The position numbers and the translations under genes are program-made. The notes beneath the pieces are model-generated. The model was not told the DNA's origin, ran no database searches, and was given only the letters and a program-made list of their open reading frames with translations. DNA of 64,000 nucleotides from a bacterium (GTDB taxonomy: Bacteria > UBA8248), in the NCBI GenBank assembly GCA_965261085.1, contig OZ253442.1:3744001-3808000 (forward strand). The letters are read 5' to 3'. Below are positions 39,715 to 47,234 of the stretch, piece after piece (within the stretch, counting starts at the first letter, position 1; every line of letters begins with the position of its first letter).

Positions 39715-40052
39715 GCACACGACACCGTCGCCGTCGCGGTCGGCCAGATCAGCCACGGTCGCTTCGAGCTTGGGCTCCGTCTCGACAGGCGTCAGACCAG
39801 CCTTGATGCATGCGATGAGCTTGGCGGCGTCCTTACGGGCTTGATCGGGTGCCACATCCCTGTGCCAGCCGACGGTGACGCGCTTCGACTTGCCGTTCGC
39901 CCGGACCTGCACCACATAGACCTTGAGCCCGCTGGGGTACACACGAAGACCGAAGCCGGAAGCTCGCTATTCCAAAAAACGCGTCCTTGCCGTCGACGGA
40001 GAGGCGGTCCACGATACGCTTGGAGAGCGTTCGGTACTGGCGTTCGGGCATG
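39715..40052 (-). pseudogene. Integrase arm-binding N-terminal remnant
   Basis: MPERQYRTLSKRIVDRLSVDGKD then, frameshifted, YPSGLKVYVVQVR...KRVTVG...ATVADLA. Confidence 0.8.
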
Positions 40053-40496
40053 TCCTCGTTCCTGCGATAGGGGTCGTCATGCCGGAGCGCGGATTGAGGG
40101 CCTCGATGTGGTGAATTCTCGCGTAAGCAATCCAAAAGCAACCGGCTGAAATTCGAGGTGCATTGAAGCGCATCGGAGGCGAGAATGCAAGGGGCAGAGT
40201 GGGCCGTGAAATTTTGGAATATAAATTATTTACAACAACTTATATCGGATGAGCCCAGGTCAGCGCATGCCAGCGCAGGTCGCGCCGCTCGGCGGTCTCG
40301 CGCGCCAGCGTCCCGCCGAGCGTCAGCCAGCCGGCTGAGCGGGATGGAATCGACGGTTGGTTCAGGATGGGTTATAGGTACCTCCTCTAGTGGATTGGAT
40401 GGGAAAGCTCTAAATCCCTCTCTGGTCTTCCCGGGTTCGCTCCGAGCCCGCCCGCTCCCTCACACCCCCAGTAGTAGTGGAGGCTCAACGAGCGGG

Positions 40497-40662
40497 TCCT
40501 TTCCGTTTTGGCCGGGGAACACACGGGGGTCATCCGGCTAGCGGGGAACCTCCTCCAACACCCTGAGCACGGGTGCCGTCAGCGAAACTATGCAAGTGGC
40601 CGCCTTGGCGTCTTAGAGTCTCAACTCGCCCGCCCTACGGTCCACGTCGTCCCAGCGTATTC
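40497..40662 (-). pseudogene. Integrase catalytic-domain remnant
   Basis: RWDDVDRRAGELRL*DAK...VSLTAPVLRVLEEVPR*PDDP parallels LRWDEVDLEANELRLPDTKTGPRTISLSP...VPDNP. Confidence 0.75.
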
Positions 40663-40799
40663 GGTTTGCGCCGATGCTTTCCTAATCCCCATCACTCCAC
40701 GAACGAACCTTTGCCGTAAGCGATGGGATGGACGCGCCCTCCCGAAGGCATCACACTGTGGTGAGGTGGTGTCGTTACCGCCCTGCAGGAGGGGAATCC

Positions 40800-41825
40800 A
40801 TGGAACAGGTTCACATCATCGGCATCGATCTGGCAAAACAGAGCTTTCAACTCCACGGCACGCGCCCGGACGGATCGGTCGCGTTCCGGAAGAAGCTTAC
40901 CAGGGCGAAGGTGTTGGGCTTTCTGGCTTCGCAGCCGCGGTGCCTGGTGGCGATGGAGGCATGTGCGAGCGCGCACTACTGGGGGCGTGAGATCGGCAAG
41001 CTCGGCCATGAGGTGAAGCTTATCCCGCCGATCTACGTGAAACCCTTCGTCAAGCGCCACAAGAACGACGAGGCTGATGCGGAGGCGATCTGCGAGTCGG
41101 CCTCTCGCCCGACCATGCACTTCGTGGCCGTGAAGACTGAAGAGCAGCAGGCCCGAGGGATGCTGTTCCGCACGCGCGATTTGCTGGTGCGACAGCGCAC
41201 CCAGACGATCAACGCGCTGCGCGGCCATCTGGCGGAGTTCGGCGTCGTTGCTCCCCAGGGTCCCGCCCATGTCGCGCGGCTGGCGTCGGCCGTTGCAGAT
41301 CCGGGCTTGGGCCTGCCCGAGGCGGTCCGCGATCTGGGCGGGGTTCTGCTCGATCAGATCGCCGGCCTCAATGCGAAGATCGGGGAGTTGGAGAGGCAAC
41401 TTCTCGCGAGTGCGCGCCAAGACGAGGAGGCGAGGCGCCTGATGAGCATACCGGGGATCGGGGCGATCGGGGCGATGGCGATCCAGGCCTTCGCGCCGCC
41501 GATGGAAAGCTTCCGGCGCGGTCGCGACTTCTCCGCCTGGCTCGGGCTCGTCCCGCGGCAGCACTCCACCGGTGGCAAGCCCCGGCTGGGCAGGATATCG
41601 AAGATGGGCCAGCGCGACGTCAGGCGGTTGTTGATCATAGGCGCGATGACGGTGGTGCGCTGGGCGGTCCGGCGCGGCGCTCCGCCGGGCTCATGGCTGG
41701 CCCGGATGCTGGCGCGAAAGCCGCGTATGCTGGTCGCGGTGGCGCTGGCCAACAGGATGGCGCGCATCGCCTGGGCGCTGATGACGAAAAAAGAGGTCTA
41801 CAAGGAGCCGGTGCCGGCCGCCTGA
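40800..41825 (+). CDS. IS110-family DEDD recombinase/transposase
   Basis: IGIDLAK, AMEAC, KNDEADAEAI, SIPGIG, GLVPRQHSTGG; GGAGGGG ribosome-binding site. Confidence 0.95.
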   Translation: MEQVHIIGIDLAKQSFQLHGTRPDGSVAFRKKLTRAKVLGFLASQPRCLVAMEACASAHYWGREIGKLGHEVKLIPPIYVKPFVKRHKNDEADAEAICESASRPTMHFVAVKTEEQQARGMLFRTRDLLVRQRTQTINALRGHLAEFGVVAPQGPAHVARLASAVADPGLGLPEAVRDLGGVLLDQIAGLNAKIGELERQLLASARQDEEARRLMSIPGIGAIGAMAIQAFAPPMESFRRGRDFSAWLGLVPRQHSTGGKPRLGRISKMGQRDVRRLLIIGAMTVVRWAVRRGAPPGSWLARMLARKPRMLVAVALANRMARIAWALMTKKEVYKEPVPAA

Positions 41826-42081
41826 GCGGCAGGCGAGCGGATAATGCCGGGAATGTGAGCAGGTCGGAGGACAGGTAAGGGGCATACGGTCAATGAGACG
41901 GGATCGGGAAAACCAGGACCTGAATGGAGAGCTTTCAAGCTCGCGTAAGCGATTCGGACCCGATCCGCGCATCTCCATACGGGCCCGTGGCAAGAGGGAA
42001 ACGCCGCAATCTAGAGGCCGAATACACGACTGCGCCTGACCACATTGCGCCGAACTGTCCGAAGAAAAAGCTTGCATTTTG
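41826..42081 (+). ncRNA. Putative seek/bridge RNA of IS110 copy 1
   Basis: Two stem-internal-loop units carrying segments that match the target (CTGAATG, GTAAGC) and the donor junction (TCCAT, ATACAC). Confidence 0.7.
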
Positions 42082-42201
42082 GGGCGCGTCCATACACATT
42101 CGGTCGAGGGGTGATGGTGTCCGCGTAGCTCATTCCGGATAATCGAAGAGATTCCCGTAAGGTGCTGGTAACATCTTCCGGCATGTGGTAATCATGTCGG
42201 C

Positions 42202-44520
42202 ATGAAGATTTGCACGGAAGCTGTCGAGACGGAGCCGGCGTTGGTCGAGAGGCCGGATGAGCCATGGCCTCATCCCCCCGAGTTGTTCACAACCGGAGAG
42301 GCGTACTGGCGTTCGCTGTACGAGCGCGAGCGTGCGCGCGCGGAGGCGGCGGAAGCGCGCTGCGAGGAGTTGCGGTGGAAGGAGGTGGATACGCGCACGC
42401 GGGCGGGTTCGCTGAAGTGGTATCTCGACAACTGCCGGAGGAAGCTTGCCGCGAGCGTCGGGAAGTTGAAGGAAGTCCGCCGCGCGGCGAAGAAGGACAT
42501 CCTGGCGCTCGAGGCGGAAGTGGCTCGACAGGAGAAGCTTCTTCGCAAAGCCGGTGTCGAGCCGGGCAAGCGCAGCCCGCTCGCGTCGCTGCGCAAAGAG
42601 GTGGCCCGGTTGCGCAAGGCTCTCTCGGGCGCGTTGCCTCCGGGGGAGGCCGCGCGGCTGCGCAGAGTCGTGGAGAAGCGGGAGAATACGATCGAGTCTC
42701 TGCGCAAGGAGATTGAGGGGCGGGAGGAGGCGCTCGCCCGGCTGAAGAATCGGCTGGCCTGGGAGAAGCTGGAGACGAAGTCTCAGAAGAAGACGGTCCA
42801 GTGGCGTGACGAGGAGGTCATCCGGCTCTGCGGGAAGTTGCGGGAATTGCGTGACGATTTGCGGGTCTCCCTCAGGGCCGCGGACGTCGCGAAGGAACGG
42901 CTGAAGGAGCGGTTGTTGCGCGCGAAGGAGGCGTTGCGCTCGAGGTCGCCGTCTCGTTCGGACGCGGAACTTCGCAAGGCCCTGGGGAGGTCGCGGCGTC
43001 AGAAGACGGCGCTCAGGTCCCTCTCCAGGGAGAACGGGCGGTTGTGCCGTGCGCTTCGCAAGTCGGAGACCCACAGGGCGCGGCTGGAGGCCGAGCTCGC
43101 GAAGCTTCGCGCCACCGGAGCGGTGCTGGCGAGAAGGCTGTTCGGGCGCGGGAGCGAACGACAGGAGAGGCCACGCTCGGAGCGCAGGCGCGGCGGGCAG
43201 CCCGGCGCCCAAGGCCATGGCCGCACCCCGCGGCCCGCGCTCGGGGAGAGGACCGAAGTTCGCAACCCGCCGGCCAGCGCGCGCGTCTGCGCCGGTTGCG
43301 GGCAGCCCTACGTGGCGAACGGCGCACGCATGTCGAGCATCGTCGAGATCGAAGTCTCGGCCTACAGGCGGGTCATACGCCGTCCGAGGTGGCGCCGGGT
43401 GTGCGCGTGCGCGTCGTCTCCCATGGAAGTGTCGGCGCCGCCTGCGCCGCGCCTGTTTGCGGGCACGTCTTACGGGACGAGCGTCTGGGCGCGCCTGCTG
43501 TTCGAGCGCTACGCCTGCTTCCGCCCACTCAACCGGGTCGCCGCGTGGCTCTCCGACCAGGGACTTCCGGTCTCCGCGGGCACGCTGGGCGACAGCACAC
43601 ACCGCTTCACGCCGCTGTTCGAGCCGCTGGCCCGGGCGATCCTCGCCCGCCAGAACGAGGCGGCGGTGCGCCATGGGGACGAGACGACGTGGCGCGTACA
43701 GTCGCTTCGCGAGCAAGGACGCTCGAGCCGCGCCTGGCTGTGGGCCTCGGTAAGCACAGACTCCGTCTACTTCCACGTCGACCCCTCGAGGAGCGCCGAT
43801 GTCGCGATGAAGCTGTTCGGCGCGGCCGGCCCCCATACAGTCATCGTCTGCGACCGCTACAGCGCCTACAAGAAGCTGGCGCGCGAACTCGACGGCGCCG
43901 TGAGTCTTGGCTTCTGCTGGAGCCACGTTCGGCGCGATTATATCCACTGCGCCGCCGGCGATGCGCGGCTGACGTCGTGGTGTGAGAGATGGATCGGGCG
44001 GATTGCGCTGCTCTACCGCCTGAACGAGGCGCGCCTGGCCCGTTACGACTCAGGCTTCGAACGCCAGGACGCGGCGTTCGAAGCGGCGCAGGCCGCGCTC
44101 AAGAAGGCGCTCGATAGCCTGTTCGCGCAGGCCCGACGGGAACTGTCGGCCCTGCCGGCGCAGGTGCGCGAGGGCAAGGCGCTTCGCTCACTGCTGAACC
44201 ACCGCGAAGGGCTGAGCGTCTTCGTCGAGCGCCCCTCGGTGCCAATGGATAATAACGCCGTCGAGCGCGCGCTTAGGGGACCGGTGATCGGGAGGCGGCT
44301 CTCGTTCGGCTCCGTGAGTGAGGCCGGCGCCAGGTTCTCGGCGATGATGTACTCGGTCCTCGGCACCCTCGCGTCGAACGGCATCGACCCGCTCCGCTGG
44401 CTGGAGGCATGGCTCACGGCCTGCGCGGAGAACGGCGACCGGGCGCCCGGGGACCTCTCCGCGTGGCTGCCCTGGTCGATGAATGAGGAGCGCAGGCGCG
44501 CCCTCATGGCGCCGGGATGA
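42202..44520 (+). CDS. IS66-family transposase with long N-terminal coiled coil
   Basis: LFGRGSE, RGGQPGAQGHGR, CAGCG zinc finger, HGDETTW, CDRYSAY, CWSHVRR, DNNAVERALRGPVIGRR. Confidence 0.92.
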   Translation: MKICTEAVETEPALVERPDEPWPHPPELFTTGEAYWRSLYERERARAEAAEARCEELRWKEVDTRTRAGSLKWYLDNCRRKLAASVGKLKEVRRAAKKDILALEAEVARQEKLLRKAGVEPGKRSPLASLRKEVARLRKALSGALPPGEAARLRRVVEKRENTIESLRKEIEGREEALARLKNRLAWEKLETKSQKKTVQWRDEEVIRLCGKLRELRDDLRVSLRAADVAKERLKERLLRAKEALRSRSPSRSDAELRKALGRSRRQKTALRSLSRENGRLCRALRKSETHRARLEAELAKLRATGAVLARRLFGRGSERQERPRSERRRGGQPGAQGHGRTPRPALGERTEVRNPPASARVCAGCGQPYVANGARMSSIVEIEVSAYRRVIRRPRWRRVCACASSPMEVSAPPAPRLFAGTSYGTSVWARLLFERYACFRPLNRVAAWLSDQGLPVSAGTLGDSTHRFTPLFEPLARAILARQNEAAVRHGDETTWRVQSLREQGRSSRAWLWASVSTDSVYFHVDPSRSADVAMKLFGAAGPHTVIVCDRYSAYKKLARELDGAVSLGFCWSHVRRDYIHCAAGDARLTSWCERWIGRIALLYRLNEARLARYDSGFERQDAAFEAAQAALKKALDSLFAQARRELSALPAQVREGKALRSLLNHREGLSVFVERPSVPMDNNAVERALRGPVIGRRLSFGSVSEAGARFSAMMYSVLGTLASNGIDPLRWLEAWLTACAENGDRAPGDLSAWLPWSMNEERRRALMAPG

Positions 44521-44524
44521 CGCC

Positions 44525-45397
44525 GTGACCGAGTGCCGCTACTACGGGCGCGACTTCACGACGGAAGAGATGGCGCTGCTGCGCGCGCTGATCGCAGGCT
44601 CTCCTGCGCTCAACCGCCATGCGCTCTCGAAGGAGTTCTGCCGCCGCATCGGCTGGTACAAGCCCGACGGCGGACTCAAGGACATGATGGCACGGGTGAC
44701 CATGCTCGCCATGGACAAGGACGGCCTGATCACGCTCCCCCCGCCGATGCGGCCACGCCACGCGGCTCGGCCAATCGTCTTCGGACCCGACACCGAAGCG
44801 CCTCTCATCCCGTCGCCGACCACCCTCGATGAGGTCCGCCCCATCGGGATGCGCATCGTCGTGCGCGGAACCCGCGAGGGCCAGCTCTGGAACGAGTTCG
44901 TCGCCCGCTACCACTACCTCGGTTACAAGACCCTCGTCGGCGCACAGATGCGCTACGCCGTCCACGACCGCGACGGCAGGCCCCTCGCCATGCTCGGCTT
45001 CTCCACCGCCGCGTGGAAGCTCGCCCCGCGCGACAGCTTCATCGGCTGGACGCCCAAGCTGCGTGAGAAGAACCTCCCCTTCGTGGTCGACAACCCGAGG
45101 TTCCTCATCCTGCCATGGATCAAAATCCCCAACCTCGGCTCGCACCTCCTCGCCATCATCCGCAGGCGCCTGCCCGGGGACTGGACCGAACGCTATGGCG
45201 TCACCCCCGTGCTCGTCGAGACCTTCGTCGAAACGCCCCGCTACACCGGAGCCGTCTACAGGGCATCGGGATGGATTCCCGTTGGAACCACCCAGGGACG
45301 AGGGCGCTACGACAGGGACAGACGCTACGACAAGCCCAAAAAGGACGTCTGGCTAAGGCCGCTCCGCAGCAACTGGAAGCAAGTCCTCAGCCGCTGA
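44525..45397 (+). CDS. DUF4338 (Druantia DruA-like) protein inside the IS66 element
   Basis: WNEFVARYHYLGY, GFSTAAWKLAPRDSFIGW, NPRFLILPW..PNLGSH, LVETFV, YTGAVYRASGW..VGTTQGRG. Confidence 0.85.
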   Translation: MTECRYYGRDFTTEEMALLRALIAGSPALNRHALSKEFCRRIGWYKPDGGLKDMMARVTMLAMDKDGLITLPPPMRPRHAARPIVFGPDTEAPLIPSPTTLDEVRPIGMRIVVRGTREGQLWNEFVARYHYLGYKTLVGAQMRYAVHDRDGRPLAMLGFSTAAWKLAPRDSFIGWTPKLREKNLPFVVDNPRFLILPWIKIPNLGSHLLAIIRRRLPGDWTERYGVTPVLVETFVETPRYTGAVYRASGWIPVGTTQGRGRYDRDRRYDKPKKDVWLRPLRSNWKQVLSR

Positions 45398-45441
45398 AAC
45401 AAACCCCATCACCCCTCGACCGAATGTGTATGGACGCGCCC

Positions 45442-45697
45442 CAAAATGCAAGCTTTTTCTTCGGACAGTTCGGCGCAATGTGGTCAGGCGCAGTCGTGTA
45501 TTCGGCCTCTAGATTGCGGCGTTTCCCTCTTGCCACGGGCCCGTATGGAGATGCGCGGATCGGGTCCGAATCGCTTACGCGAGCTTGAAAGCTCTCCATT
45601 CAGGTCCTGGTTTTCCCGATCCCGTCTCATTGACCGTATGCCCCTTACCTGTCCTCCGACCTGCTCACATTCCCGGCATTATCCGCTCGCCTGCCGC
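45442..45697 (-). ncRNA. Putative seek/bridge RNA of IS110 copy 2
   Basis: Reverse complement of 41826-42081. Confidence 0.7.
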
Positions 45698-46723
45698 TCA
45701 GGCGGCCGGCACCGGCTCCTTGTAGACCTCTTTTTTCGTCATCAGCGCCCAGGCGATGCGCGCCATCCTGTTGGCCAGCGCCACCGCGACCAGCATACGC
45801 GGCTTTCGCGCCAGCATCCGGGCCAGCCATGAGCCCGGCGGAGCGCCGCGCCGGACCGCCCAGCGCACCACCGTCATCGCGCCTATGATCAACAACCGCC
45901 TGACGTCGCGCTGGCCCATCTTCGATATCCTGCCCAGCCGGGGCTTGCCACCGGTGGAGTGCTGCCGCGGGACGAGCCCGAGCCAGGCGGAGAAGTCGCG
46001 ACCGCGCCGGAAGCTTTCCATCGGCGGCGCGAAGGCCTGGATCGCCATCGCCCCGATCGCCCCGATCCCCGGTATGCTCATCAGGCGCCTCGCCTCCTCG
46101 TCTTGGCGCGCACTCGCGAGAAGTTGCCTCTCCAACTCCCCGATCTTCGCATTGAGGCCGGCGATCTGATCGAGCAGAACCCCGCCCAGATCGCGGACCG
46201 CCTCGGGCAGGCCCAAGCCCGGATCTGCAACGGCCGACGCCAGCCGCGCGACATGGGCGGGACCCTGGGGAGCAACGACGCCGAACTCCGCCAGATGGCC
46301 GCGCAGCGCGTTGATCGTCTGGGTGCGCTGTCGCACCAGCAAATCGCGCGTGCGGAACAGCATCCCTCGGGCCTGCTGCTCTTCAGTCTTCACGGCCACG
46401 AAGTGCATGGTCGGGCGAGAGGCCGACTCGCAGATCGCCTCCGCATCAGCCTCGTCGTTCTTGTGGCGCTTGACGAAGGGTTTCACGTAGATCGGCGGGA
46501 TAAGCTTCACCTCATGGCCGAGCTTGCCGATCTCACGCCCCCAGTAGTGCGCGCTCGCACATGCCTCCATCGCCACCAGGCACCGCGGCTGCGAAGCCAG
46601 AAAGCCCAACACCTTCGCCCTGGTAAGCTTCTTCCGGAACGCGACCGATCCGTCCGGGCGCGTGCCGTGGAGTTGAAAGCTCTGTTTTGCCAGATCGATG
46701 CCGATGATGTGAACCTGTTCCAT
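45698..46723 (-). CDS. IS110-family DEDD recombinase/transposase
   Basis: Protein identical to copy 1. Confidence 0.95.
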   Translation of the reverse strand: MEQVHIIGIDLAKQSFQLHGTRPDGSVAFRKKLTRAKVLGFLASQPRCLVAMEACASAHYWGREIGKLGHEVKLIPPIYVKPFVKRHKNDEADAEAICESASRPTMHFVAVKTEEQQARGMLFRTRDLLVRQRTQTINALRGHLAEFGVVAPQGPAHVARLASAVADPGLGLPEAVRDLGGVLLDQIAGLNAKIGELERQLLASARQDEEARRLMSIPGIGAIGAMAIQAFAPPMESFRRGRDFSAWLGLVPRQHSTGGKPRLGRISKMGQRDVRRLLIIGAMTVVRWAVRRGAPPGSWLARMLARKPRMLVAVALANRMARIAWALMTKKEVYKEPVPAA

Positions 46724-47234
46724 GGATTCCCCTCCTGCAGGGCGGTAACGACACCACCTCACCACAGTGTGATGCCTTCGGGAGGGCGCGTCCATCCCAT
46801 CGCTTACCCTTTGCCCGACGTAAACGCGCGCCTATGCGCTGGAGTTGTAATTCATCCGCTTGCGTTTTGATTACATCCTGCGGAAGCTAGATTCCGAACA
46901 AGAGCGGGGATATTTAATATTTTCAAATGATATCAATGGGATAGCAGGATTCCACACCCGTTGGAAATACCCTAGTATCTATAAACGGGCGAAATATGAA
47001 ATTTGCGGATATTTATTTCGGTCCGAAACAAAGCTTCATTCCCCGCAACCCCTTGTCCGGAAGGGATTCGTCCGGGAGGCGGATGCGGTTTTCTCTTTCA
47101 TGGGTCCCTGCCTTCCGGGAAGAGCGACGCCCATCTCCCCCAAGGTAGCCATCGACAGGGGAGGGATGTTATCTGGAAACAGACGCCGTCCCGTGAACGG
47201 CGTTGCGGGTCCTGCACGGGCCGCCCGCATGCGC

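What the first reader, a model, noticed from the sequence alone, without database searches (positions are those of the whole stretch)
41895..42040. Guide segments for both target and donor are readable in the IS110 non-coding region
Seen: stem GGATCGGG (41901-41908) / CCCGATCC (41959-41966) encloses CTGAATG (41920-41926), a GAGCT-TTCA-AGCTC hairpin and GTAAGC (41945-41950). GTAAGC equals the left half of the target; CUGAAUG pairs with the right half CATTCGG with one G-U wobble. A second stem GCGCA / TGCGC encloses TCCAT (41974-41978) and ATACAC (42022-42027), matching the predicted circle junction ATACA-C-GATGGG. Known: this is the two-loop layout of IS110 bridge/seek RNAs. Inference: a complete, naturally programmed RNA-guided recombinase with perfect-match target GTAAGCATTCAG, potentially reprogrammable.
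Basis: partly seen in the sequence, partly recalled or inferred. Interest (0 to 1): 0.85.

Follow-up and report, generated by a model that had tools for sequence, protein, structure and literature searches.

The report
Bridge RNA of an IS1111-type element
This is the guide ("bridge" or "seek") RNA gene of a small jumping gene of the IS110/IS1111 kind, naturally programmed to insert into the end of another jumping gene (an IS66-type element); it is a well-supported new example of a mechanism first described in 2024, not a new mechanism.

Summary
They lie in the 272-nt 3' non-coding region of a 1376-bp IS110-family element of the IS1111 type (window 40722-42097, + strand). The genome holds four identical copies, each inserted at GTAAGC|ATTCGG in the terminal inverted repeat of an IS66-type element.

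Folding energy alone is not significant (z -0.49). Relatives decide the case. Across 28 distinct guide sets from 65 loci:
- the segment at 41945-50 tracks the left flank;
- the segment at 41920-26 tracks the reverse complement of the right flank;
- the segment at 42022-27 tracks the element's right end (28 of 28).
Permutations reached the observed values 0 of 20000 times.

The donor right guide UCCAU (41974-78) pairs with left-end positions 2-6. More distant plasmid relatives, including IS4321/IS5075, support this.

Two corrections:
A covarying helix 41888-92/42037-41 closes both loops instead.
- The "perfect" target GTAAGCATTCAG occurs nowhere in the genome.

Verdict: new member of a known kind (Durrant 2024; Siddiquee 2024).

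The parts
40716..40721 (+). Left target half (LT) GTAAGC. It is the outermost 6 bp of the IS66-type terminal inverted repeat. C40721 is the one base shared with the element's right end (the core).
   Evidence: Flanks of 4 copies; unoccupied sites.
40722..42097 (+). IS110-family element of the IS1111 type, copy 1, 1376 bp.
   Evidence: Four exact copies in the genome. Boundaries come from comparing occupied and empty sites.
40722..40739 (+). Left end: GATGGG followed by the 12-bp sub-terminal inverted repeat ATGGACGCGCCC (40728-40739). Positions 2-6 (ATGGG) are the proposed partner of the donor right guide.
40800..41825 (+). Transposase/recombinase gene, 341 aa. It has DEDD_Tnp_IS110 and Transposase_20 domains. 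D10, E53, D90 and D93, and S256-T257-G258, align to the IS621 catalytic positions.
   Evidence: Pfam; PDB sequence matches to ISCro4 and IS621; residue numbering.
41845..42086 (+). Whole conserved RNA domain, closed by the long-range helix 41845-41860 / 42070-42086.
   Evidence: RNAalifold and pair counts on 24 relatives. This helix has 5 pairs with changes on both sides and is 96.8% paired.
41888..42041 (+). Two-loop core of the bridge RNA (154 nt), closed by GGUCA 41888-92 / UGACC 42037-41.
   Evidence: The helix is invariant in close relatives. It changes to GAUCGG/CCGAUC in plasmid relatives, giving 6 double changes at each of 2 positions. Covariance model R1 was built on this span.
41901..41966 (+). 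Target-binding arm. It has the stem 41901-08/41959-66, a CC/GG helix 41913-14/41956-57 and a hairpin 41929-42.
   Evidence: The stem is 98.4% paired. 6 of 8 stem positions have double changes in the wider alignment.
41920..41926 (+). Right target guide CUGAAUG. It pairs with the top strand of C+ATTCGG (42097/40721 core plus 42098-42103), with one U-G wobble.
   Evidence: Covariation with right flanks in relatives: longest Watson-Crick run 5.71 cognate versus 3.17 non-cognate, reached by 0 of 20000 permutations.
41945..41950 (+). Left target guide GUAAGC. It is identical to the top strand of the left flank, so it pairs with the bottom strand.
   Evidence: Identity over 7 nt is 6.25 cognate versus 2.62 non-cognate, reached by 0 of 20000 permutations.
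41974..41978 (+). Donor right guide UCCAU. It pairs with left-end positions 2-6, ATGGG (40723-40727), with one U-G wobble.
   Evidence: Both sides are invariant in close relatives. In plasmid relatives the base 5' of CCAU follows left-end position 6: A/G with U, T with G or A, C with G, and one mismatch. IS5075 shows CUCAU with ATGAG.
41982..42019 (+). Donor arm. It has an inner helix GGCC 41982-85 / GGCC 42016-19 and a hairpin 41987-91/42003-07.
   Evidence: 99% paired; GACC/GGUC compensatory change in 2 relatives.
42022..42027 (+). Donor left guide AUACAC. It is identical to the last 6 nt of the element, 42092-42097.
   Evidence: 6 of 6 identity in 28 of 28 guide sets, across 7 different end sequences. 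The non-cognate mean is 4.45.
42082..42097 (+). Right end: sub-terminal inverted repeat GGGCGCGTCCAT (42082-93) followed by ACAC.
42098..45425 (+). Body of the IS66-family element whose two terminal repeats are both interrupted. The right target half ATTCGG is 42098-42103. The IS66 transposase ORF is 42202-44520. A DruA-domain ORF is 44483-45397.
   Evidence: Pfam; 26-bp perfect terminal repeats once the tips are counted in.
45426..46801 (-). Copy 2 of the same element, identical to copy 1, inserted in the other terminal repeat of the same IS66 element. Its bridge RNA core is 45482-45635 on the - strand.

Best explanation
Window 41845-42086 (two-loop core 41888-42041, + strand) encodes the bridge/seek RNA of an intact IS1111-type IS110-family insertion sequence (40722-42097).

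Shown here:
- The RNA has a target arm whose internal loop carries CUGAAUG, which pairs with the top strand right of the insertion point, and GUAAGC, which pairs with the bottom strand left of it.
- It has a donor arm whose flanking strands carry UCCAU, which pairs with the element's left end, and AUACAC, which equals the element's right end.
- In relatives these four segments change together with the flanks and the ends.

Inferred from published work on IS621, ISEc11, ISKpn4 and ISPa11:
- The element excises as a circle joining ...ATACAC to GATGGG...
- The RNA is made from the transposase transcript and bound by the DEDD/Ser(Thr) recombinase.
- The RNA holds the circle junction and the target together while strands are exchanged at the shared C.
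- The result is insertion without a target duplication.

The programmed target is GTAAGC|ATTCGG, 6 bp inside the terminal inverted repeat of an IS66-family element.
For: 1. Element identity. It has Pfam DEDD_Tnp_IS110 and Transposase_20, a 341-aa protein, 12-bp sub-terminal inverted repeats, a 78-nt left end versus a 272-nt right non-coding end, and sequence matches to the solved ISCro4 and IS621 recombinases.

2. Activity and specificity. There are 4 exact 1376-bp copies, all at GTAAGC|ATTCGG. The genome has 6 exact 12-mers: 4 occupied and 2 empty, both empty ones in IS66-type repeats.

3. Guide-target covariation. From 65 usable loci of 81 sources I obtained 28 distinct guide sets. Permutations reached the observed value 0 of 20000 times for each measure.
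- Left target guide identity: 6.25 of 7 cognate versus 2.62 non-cognate.
- Right target guide longest Watson-Crick run: 5.71 versus 3.17.
- Donor left guide: 6 of 6 in 28 of 28, versus 4.45.

4. Donor right guide. In plasmid relatives the base 5' of CCAU follows left-end position 6. E. coli plasmid relative L118 has UUCCAU with ATGGAA, and IS5075/IS4321 have CUCAU with ATGAG.

5. Structure. 97.1% of 1246 cells are paired. 10 pairs show changes on both sides, versus 3.6 in shuffles, reached by 0 of 500 shuffles. The wider alignment gives 10 of 24 pairs with double changes.

6. Strand. 142 G-U cells would be mismatches on the other strand: 97.1% paired on + versus 86.4% on -.

7. Homology of the RNA. 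Model R1 finds the region just 3' of the transposase gene, on the same strand:
- Bosea: 73 bits.
- An E. coli plasmid element: 53 bits.
- IS4321 and IS5075: 18.9 and 17.7 bits, E about 1e-4.

8. Order and overlap of the target matches agree with Siddiquee 2024 (section 9 read). The 154-nt core equals the size they report for the long ISEc11 RNA (section 8).
Against: - No RNA from this organism was seen. The only RNA-library data are assembled contigs of relatives, which cannot show ends, strand or level.
- Folding energy is not better than shuffles.
- Rfam 15 has no matching family at E up to 1.
- No sigma-70-type promoter or intrinsic terminator was found in 40600-42250. A junction promoter candidate is weak: 6 of 12 here, and 7 of 12 in 9 of 22 relatives.
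- The right-guide match is imperfect in several relatives. In the largest multi-copy group (13 loci of one genome), about 7 right flanks do not match the guide. Three of 28 sets have Watson-Crick runs of only 3 (the 13-locus group, L088 and L098; L088 reaches 4 with G-U allowed).
- Permutation tests ignore relatedness of the sequences.
- The donor right guide has one contradicting relative, L105 (A opposite G). L087 has a left-end change without a guide change.
- Target and donor share only C here (target CA, donor CG). 27 of 28 sets share a YG dinucleotide.
- IS4321/IS5075 were missed by the model with default filters.
Confidence: 0.9

Rival explanations
1. Seek-only model. The RNA chooses only the target. 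The element's own ends are recognised by the protein through the sub-terminal inverted repeats, and the AUACAC / UCCAU matches are by-products of sequence conservation.
For: - UCCAU and the left end ATGG are invariant in the 24 close relatives, so they carry no covariation there.
- UCCAU overlaps a possible helix GAGA 41895-98 / UCUC 41972-75 that is 96.8% paired, with one compensatory change.
- Siddiquee 2024 describe short seekRNAs of about 82 nt containing only the target matches.
Against: - AUACAC-type segments follow 7 different right-end sequences in 28 of 28 guide sets.
- The base 5' of CCAU follows left-end position 6 in plasmid relatives, and in IS5075 and L118.
- The GAGA/UCUC helix is not kept in the Leisingera-type relatives.
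Confidence: 0.06
2. Two independent stem-loops, with the donor loop closed by GCGCA 41967-71 / UGCGC 42031-35, form the functional structure of this copy.
For: This stem is perfect here and appears in the minimum-free-energy and centroid folds.
Against: - In 24 relatives it is paired in only 69.2% of cells.
- Two of its 5 pairs are broken in 14 and 18 sequences, and there is no change on both sides.
- The alternative closing helix 41888-92/42037-41 covaries.
Confidence: 0.2
3. No guide RNA. The non-coding region resembles the target because it holds a relic of an IS66 end (41945-57 GTAAGCGATTCGG resembles GTAAGCATTCGG), and the protein recognises the IS66 repeat directly.
For: 41945-41957 resembles the uninterrupted target with one extra G. 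Several relatives also sit in IS66 ends.
Against: - GAU(U/A)(U/C)GGAC after the variable segment is conserved in relatives with unrelated targets.
- The variable segments track at least 15 different flank sequences.
- The structure covaries on the + strand.
Confidence: 0.02

Closest known systems
seekRNAs of IS1111-family elements ISEc11, ISPa11, ISKpn4, ISPst6 (Siddiquee et al. 2024, PMC11187229)
   Same: - The RNA lies in the non-coding region 3' of the transposase gene.
- The element has sub-terminal inverted repeats and a transposase of 330-350 aa with an S/T-G motif.
- The top-strand-complementary segment lies 5' of the bottom-strand-complementary one, and the two overlap at the insertion point.
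- The long RNA form is about 150 nt (154 nt for ISEc11), against a 154-nt core here.
- No promoter is seen inside the linear element.
   Different: - The target here is the end of an IS66-family element, rather than an attC site, a REP element or the ISEc11 site.
- I did not fetch those four elements, so their RNA homology to this one is untested.
- Nothing was tested experimentally here.
IS621 / ISCro4 bridge RNA (Durrant et al. 2024, PMC11208160; Hiraizumi et al. 2024, PMC11208158)
   Same: - One RNA carries a target loop and a donor loop.
- Each loop reads both strands on either side of a short shared core.
- The recombinase is of the DEDD plus Ser type (PDB sequence matches, E 4e-14 and 2e-11).
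   Different: - The RNA is 3' of the gene, not 5'.
- The order of left and right guides in each loop is reversed.
- The sub-terminal repeats are long.
- The bases 3' of the right guides do not match the non-cognate left arms, as the IS621 handshake guides do (my reading).
- Only one base, not two, is shared by donor and target in this copy.
IS4321 / IS5075 (annotated by RefSeq on plasmids; their targeting of Tn21-family terminal repeats is in the title of Partridge and Hall 2003, seen only in reference lists)
   Same: - An IS1111-type element inserts at one fixed position inside the terminal inverted repeat of another transposable element.
- The non-coding region is matched by my model R1 at the same place and strand.
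- The aligned guide positions fit the flanks and ends read in L116 and L117.
   Different: - The transposase is only about 42% identical.
- The model score is marginal (17.7-18.9 bits), and the hits were missed with default filters.
- The target is a Tn3-family repeat, not an IS66 repeat.

Membership tests
IS110 family, IS1111 group (insertion sequence) | DEDD (RuvC-like) N-terminal domain and C-terminal Transposase_20 domain with a conserved S/T-G motif | tested here: met
   PF01548 E 2.1e-15 and PF02371 E 6.1e-22. D10, E53, D90 and D93, and GLVPRQHSTG with T257 at the position of the IS621 catalytic Ser, by alignment. The motif definition comes from Siddiquee 2024 section 6.
IS110 family, IS1111 group (insertion sequence) | Sub-terminal inverted repeats of 7-17 bp, with short extensions beyond them | tested here: met
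   ATGGACGCGCCC (40728-39) and GGGCGCGTCCAT (42082-93), with 6-nt and 4-nt extensions. The length range is from Durrant 2024 passages.
IS110 family, IS1111 group (insertion sequence) | The longer non-coding region lies downstream of the transposase gene | tested here: met
   78 nt upstream (40722-40799) versus 272 nt downstream (41826-42097).
IS110 family, IS1111 group (insertion sequence) | Site-specific insertion without target duplication | tested here: met
   4 of 4 copies sit at the same 12-bp site. The empty sites read GTAAGCATTCGG with nothing duplicated.
Bridge RNA / seekRNA | Target-loop segments complementary to both strands of the target, co-varying with the target among relatives | tested here: met
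   28 guide sets; permutations reached the observed value 0 of 20000 times. Named plasmid relatives agree.
Bridge RNA / seekRNA | IS1111-type order: top-strand match 5' of bottom-strand match, overlapping at the insertion point | tested here: met
   41920-26 precedes 41945-50, and both include the core C.
Bridge RNA / seekRNA | Donor-loop segments matching both ends of the element (the circle junction) and co-varying with them | tested here: met
   Left donor guide: 28 of 28. Right donor guide: supported in more distant relatives, with one contradicting case, L105.
Bridge RNA / seekRNA | Conserved secondary structure with compensatory changes on the transposase strand | tested here: met
Bridge RNA / seekRNA | The RNA is transcribed, processed and bound by the transposase, and is required for transposition | not testable with these tools
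   Only contigs of relatives in RNA libraries were available. No promoter was found.
Bridge RNA / seekRNA | Match to a curated RNA family | tested here: not met
   No Rfam 15 hit at E up to 1 in 40000-43000. I do not know whether Rfam 15 holds an IS1111-type bridge RNA model.

The most novel reading that the evidence does not exclude
This clade of IS1111-type elements may be a specialised, RNA-programmed parasite of other mobile elements.

Its guides are repeatedly set to the ends of other insertion sequences:
- IS66 here, and in L076, L101 and L113.
- A Mutator/IS256-type element in L030.
- An IS630-like element in L068.
- Elements next to IS5-, IS30- and ISSpo9-annotated genes in L110, L118, L111 and L109.
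- The bridge-RNA genes of its own relatives (L020, L024, L035).

The window's element splits both terminal repeats of one IS66 copy. It does so although target and donor share only one core base (CA versus CG). This hints that the crossover region in this group can be a single nucleotide, unlike the two-base core of IS621.
Probability: 0.35. Interest if true: 0.55.

Novelty: new member of a known kind. Interest (0 to 1): 0.35.

Why it matters
The mechanism itself was published in 2024, so this example does not change the picture.

Its value is as a clean, natural data set. Transposases 75-85% identical carry at least 28 different guide sets, and target, donor and core bases all change in step. 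This gives a ready-made map of which RNA positions are programmable in an IS1111-type scaffold. That scaffold is much less studied structurally than IS621.

It also documents a target class, the IS66-family terminal repeat. My two literature searches (listings and abstract starts only) did not show this target class described.

Finally, it is a natural case in which donor and target differ at the second core position.

Tried and rejected
- Thermodynamic test. Folds of 41826-42116 and 41895-42040 were no better than shuffles, so I rejected this as evidence either way.
- Rfam. No hit.
- Promoter and terminator scan of 40600-42250. Nothing found. A script scan of the computed circle junction gave only weak candidates, so this is not used as support.
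- Inverted-repeat finder. My first automatic finder picked many spurious repeats. I replaced it with anchor motifs.
- Loci dropped. Of 81 sources, 14 were dropped before the statistics. Five had no target-arm anchor (L028, L048, L049, L051, L086). Nine had no recognisable left or right end in range (L021, L027, L029, L045, L056, L080, L085, L093, L096). L053 (duplicated hairpin) and L058 (misplaced right-end anchor) were dropped.
- In-genome diverged copies L005, L006 and L010. L006 and L010 partly fit (right guide and donor left guide). L005 does not fit its right flank. They look truncated and were not counted.
- Handshake guides. I looked for IS621-type handshake bases 3' of the right guides and found no match. 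The conserved GAU after the left target guide equals the first bases of the left end in 25 of 28 sets. It does not co-vary with the left end (L087, L024, L035, L041; IS5075 differs), so I left it as an idea only.
- Left-end position 7 versus the base 5' of UCCAU. No consistent pairing.
- RNA evidence. RNA-library runs held at most 0.09 of the sampled words. Contigs of relatives in two metatranscriptome runs cover about 41886-41991, and their loose ends diverge at the guide segments. Contigs cannot show transcription, ends or strand. No back-joining contig for a circle junction was listed.
- Other genome 12-mers. The 181 sites with 1-2 mismatches to the target were only skimmed. A few are other IS66-type ends, unoccupied.
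- Flanking ORFs. The Pfam check on eight relatives (ten ORFs) gave hits for 3 of them (L076, L030, L068), a sub-threshold hit on a second L076 ORF, and none for the other six ORFs.
- Supplements of the papers were closed. Supplementary figures 6-7 of Siddiquee 2024 and Supplementary Table 5 and Extended Data Fig. 10 of Durrant 2024 may already show folds or targets of close relatives.
Full report
**What is in the sequence.**
The minimum-free-energy fold of 41895-42040 reproduces the two stems and the hairpin. Its energy is not unusual: z = -0.49, and 63 of 200 shuffles fold at least as well. The whole non-coding region gives z = -0.48.

**The element.**
The region lies 3' of an ORF with Pfam DEDD_Tnp_IS110 and Transposase_20 domains. 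The likely start is at 40800, giving 341 aa. The protein matches the solved ISCro4 and IS621 recombinases by sequence (E 4e-14 and 2.1e-11). It has D10, E53, D90 and D93, and S256-T257-G258, at the aligned catalytic positions. The T-G form of the motif is one that Siddiquee et al. describe for IS1111 transposases.

The genome (one contig of 4.27 Mb) holds four exact 1376-bp copies. Two are in the window: 40722-42097 (+) and 45426-46801 (-). Occupied and empty sites fix the boundaries:
- Occupied sites read GTAAGC|GATGGG...ATACAC|ATTCGG.
- Empty sites read GTAAGCATTCGG.
- Only one base, C, is shared by the target and the circle junction.

The ends carry 12-bp sub-terminal inverted repeats. The left non-coding end is 78 nt and the right one 272 nt. 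These are the defining traits of the IS1111 group.

**The target.**
GTAAGCATTCGGTCGAGGGGTGATGG is the terminal inverted repeat of an IS66-family element. Its transposase ORF is 42202-44520. Once the separated tips are counted in, the two repeats match perfectly over 26 bp. Both repeats of the window's IS66 copy are interrupted, 6 bp from the tip, by the two copies in mirrored orientation. The whole 6092-bp composite (40716-46807) is flanked by an 8-bp direct repeat, CCTTTGCC. The genome has six exact GTAAGCATTCGG sites. Four are occupied and two are empty, both in IS66-type repeats. It has no GTAAGCATTCAG site.

**Relatives and guide covariation.**
The transposase has thousands of close relatives. 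A scan of one genome per species confirmed 343 relatives and returned the best 80 loci, 75-85% identical. Using conserved anchors I could read both ends, both flanks and the non-coding region in 67 of 81 sources. Two more were dropped for anchor failure. That left 65 loci and 28 distinct guide sets.

| Segment | Cognate | Non-cognate |
|---|---|---|
| Left target guide (homologous to 41945-50), identity to left flank over 7 nt | 6.25 | 2.62 |
| Right target guide (homologous to 41920-26), longest Watson-Crick run with right flank | 5.71 | 3.17 |
| Donor left guide (homologous to 42022-27), identity to last 6 nt of the element | 6 of 6 in 28 of 28 sets | 4.45 |

The donor left guide holds across seven different end sequences. 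None of 20000 permutations reached the observed mean for any measure. These permutations ignore shared ancestry, but the flanks are very diverse.

Results against this reading:
- Three sets have right-guide Watson-Crick runs of only 3 (the 13-locus group, L088 and L098; L088 reaches 4 with G-U allowed).
- In the largest multi-copy group (13 loci in one genome), about seven right flanks do not fit the guide although most left flanks do. This may reflect later rearrangement between copies or looser right-side requirements.

Contigs from public runs also break away from the window exactly at the guide segments (loose ends at 41916 and 41950). This fits hypervariable guides inside a conserved scaffold.

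**Donor right guide.**
UCCAU and the left end ATGG are invariant among the close relatives, so they carry no signal there. I therefore fetched 21 more distant relatives (42-70% identical) from named plasmids. In these, the base 5' of CCAU follows left-end position 6:
- Left end GATGGAG goes with CUCCAU (5 loci).
- GATGGTG goes with CGCCAU (4 loci, rG-dT wobble).
- GATGGCG goes with CGCCAU (1 locus).
- GATGATG goes with CACCAU (1 locus; position 6 pairs, position 5 does not).
- AATGGAA goes with UUCCAU (E. coli plasmid element L118).
- IS5075/IS4321 have AATGAG with CUCAU.
- L105 contradicts the pattern (A opposite G).
- L087 has a left-end change without a guide change.

The alternative partner, ATGGA at positions 7-11, fits less well.

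**Structure.**
- The first stem is 98.4% paired.
- The hairpin is 90% paired.
- The second stem, GCGCA/UGCGC, is only 69.2% paired. Two of its pairs are broken in 14 and 18 sequences, and no position changes on both sides.

RNAalifold proposes a different arrangement:
- a long-range helix 41845-60/42070-86;
- a helix GGUCA 41888-92 / UGACC 42037-41 that encloses both arms;
- a short GAGA/UCUC helix;
- the target arm;
- the donor arm, with GGCC/GGCC and a GYGGC/GCCGC hairpin.

This structure is 97.1% paired. Ten pairs have changes on both sides, against 3.6 in shuffles (0 of 500 shuffles reach it), and it clearly beats slid controls.

Adding eight plasmid relatives (A2) gives further support. 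The enclosing helix changes from GGUCA/UGACC to GAUCGG/CCGAUC, with six double changes at each of two positions. Six of eight positions of the target stem show double changes. The GAGA/UCUC helix is not kept there.

The 142 G-U cells would be mismatches on the opposite strand: 97.1% paired on + versus 86.4% on -. The RNA is therefore read from the transposase strand.

**Link to named elements.**
I built a covariance model of the 154-nt core (R1). It finds the region just 3' of the transposase gene, on the same strand, in all plasmid relatives tested:
- Bosea: 73 bits.
- An E. coli plasmid element: 53 bits.
- IS4321 and IS5075: marginally, at 18.9 and 17.7 bits with filters off. Both were missed with default filters.

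In L116 and L117 the IS5075 and IS4321 copies sit in a Tn21-type terminal repeat, next to a Tn3-family transposase gene in L116. The bases at the aligned guide positions fit those flanks and ends. The scaffold and its guide positions are thus shared with long-known IS1111 members. I did not fetch ISEc11, ISKpn4 or ISPa11, the elements whose RNAs were tested experimentally.

**How it most likely works.**
Shown here: an intact element, four cognate insertions, and four guide segments that co-vary with their DNA partners on a covarying scaffold. Inferred from the literature:
- The element excises as a circle.
- The RNA comes from the transposase transcript. No internal promoter was found here, as Siddiquee et al. 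also report for ISEc11.
- A recombinase tetramer uses the RNA to pair the circle junction ATACA-C-GATGGG with the target GTAAG-C-ATTCGG.
- Strands are exchanged at the core.

The size of the enclosed core (154 nt) equals the long ISEc11 RNA, and the target arm (about 80 nt) matches the short form.

**Novelty.**
Bridge RNAs in the right end of IS1111-group elements (predicted in 93.0% of them) and programmable seekRNAs are published. This is a new member of a known kind. Three things may be of some interest:
- The target class. The IS66 terminal repeat was not evident in two literature searches, for which I saw listings and abstract starts only.
- The tendency of the clade to sit in other mobile elements.
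- The core. 27 of 28 guide sets share a YG dinucleotide between target and donor. This element's target has CA against donor CG, with the guide adapted to the A.

All four insertions carry CG at the left junction and CA at the right. That is what a one-base crossover predicts, but at most three of the events are clearly independent.

Noticed in passing
window 40708-46815: One IS66-family element has both of its terminal repeats split by two mirrored copies of the IS1111-type element. The tips are GTAAGC 40716-21 and GCTTAC 46802-07, and the body is 42098-45425. The whole 6.1-kb composite is flanked by an 8-bp direct repeat, CCTTTGCC (40708-15 and 46808-15).
   Followed up: partly
window 44483-45397 (+): A 304-aa ORF inside the IS66-family element, overlapping the end of its transposase ORF, matches the Pfam DruA family (Druantia protein DruA, PF14236, E 1.3e-36). 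It looks like a passenger or accessory gene of this IS66 variant, which lacks separate tnpA and tnpB ORFs.
   Followed up: no
window 42202-44520 (+): The IS66-family transposase ORF is 772 aa. The DDE_Tnp_IS66 domain covers only residues 422-711. The first roughly 330 residues are a long Arg/Glu/Leu-rich, probably coiled-coil, extension.
   Followed up: no
window 40650-40715: Immediately left of the composite, on the - strand, lies a second IS66-like repeat remnant (TTCGTTCGTGGAGTGATGGGG). The IS66 element seems to have inserted next to or into an older IS66-type end.
   Followed up: no
L020:1295-1447 and L020 flanks; L024:2793-2949; L035:2794-2950: Some relatives are inserted into the bridge-RNA gene of another relative. 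L020 sits in the donor arm (AGAGGTC|GACATAC). L024 and L035 sit at the conserved 5' edge (GGGCAAAC|GGTCAA), so a second model hit lies directly beside the element.
   Followed up: partly
L030-L047 (13 loci of one genome, OZ253470.1): This is a multi-copy relative with one guide set. Most left flanks fit the guide (GGTAACC), but about seven right flanks do not. This suggests rearrangements between copies or tolerance on the right side. The matching right flank of L030 leads into a Mutator/IS256-type transposase gene.
   Followed up: partly
L104:1870-1960: The Leisingera plasmid relative carries a tandem duplication of its last roughly 74 nt. The duplicated stretch runs from the donor left guide to the right end, giving two right ends.
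   Followed up: no
L101 (Gemmobacter fulvus plasmid): This relative sits at GGTAAGC| (an IS66-type tip). Its own non-coding region is in turn cut by the end of another IS66-family element, just after GGTCAAGA.
   Followed up: no
genome G000:C1 1872201, 1443325-1444017, 1192341-1192623, 2514902-2515190: Diverged or truncated relatives of the element (78-90% identical) are present in the same genome. They carry different guide segments. L006's right guide CAGAUUU fits its right flank AAATCTG.
   Followed up: partly
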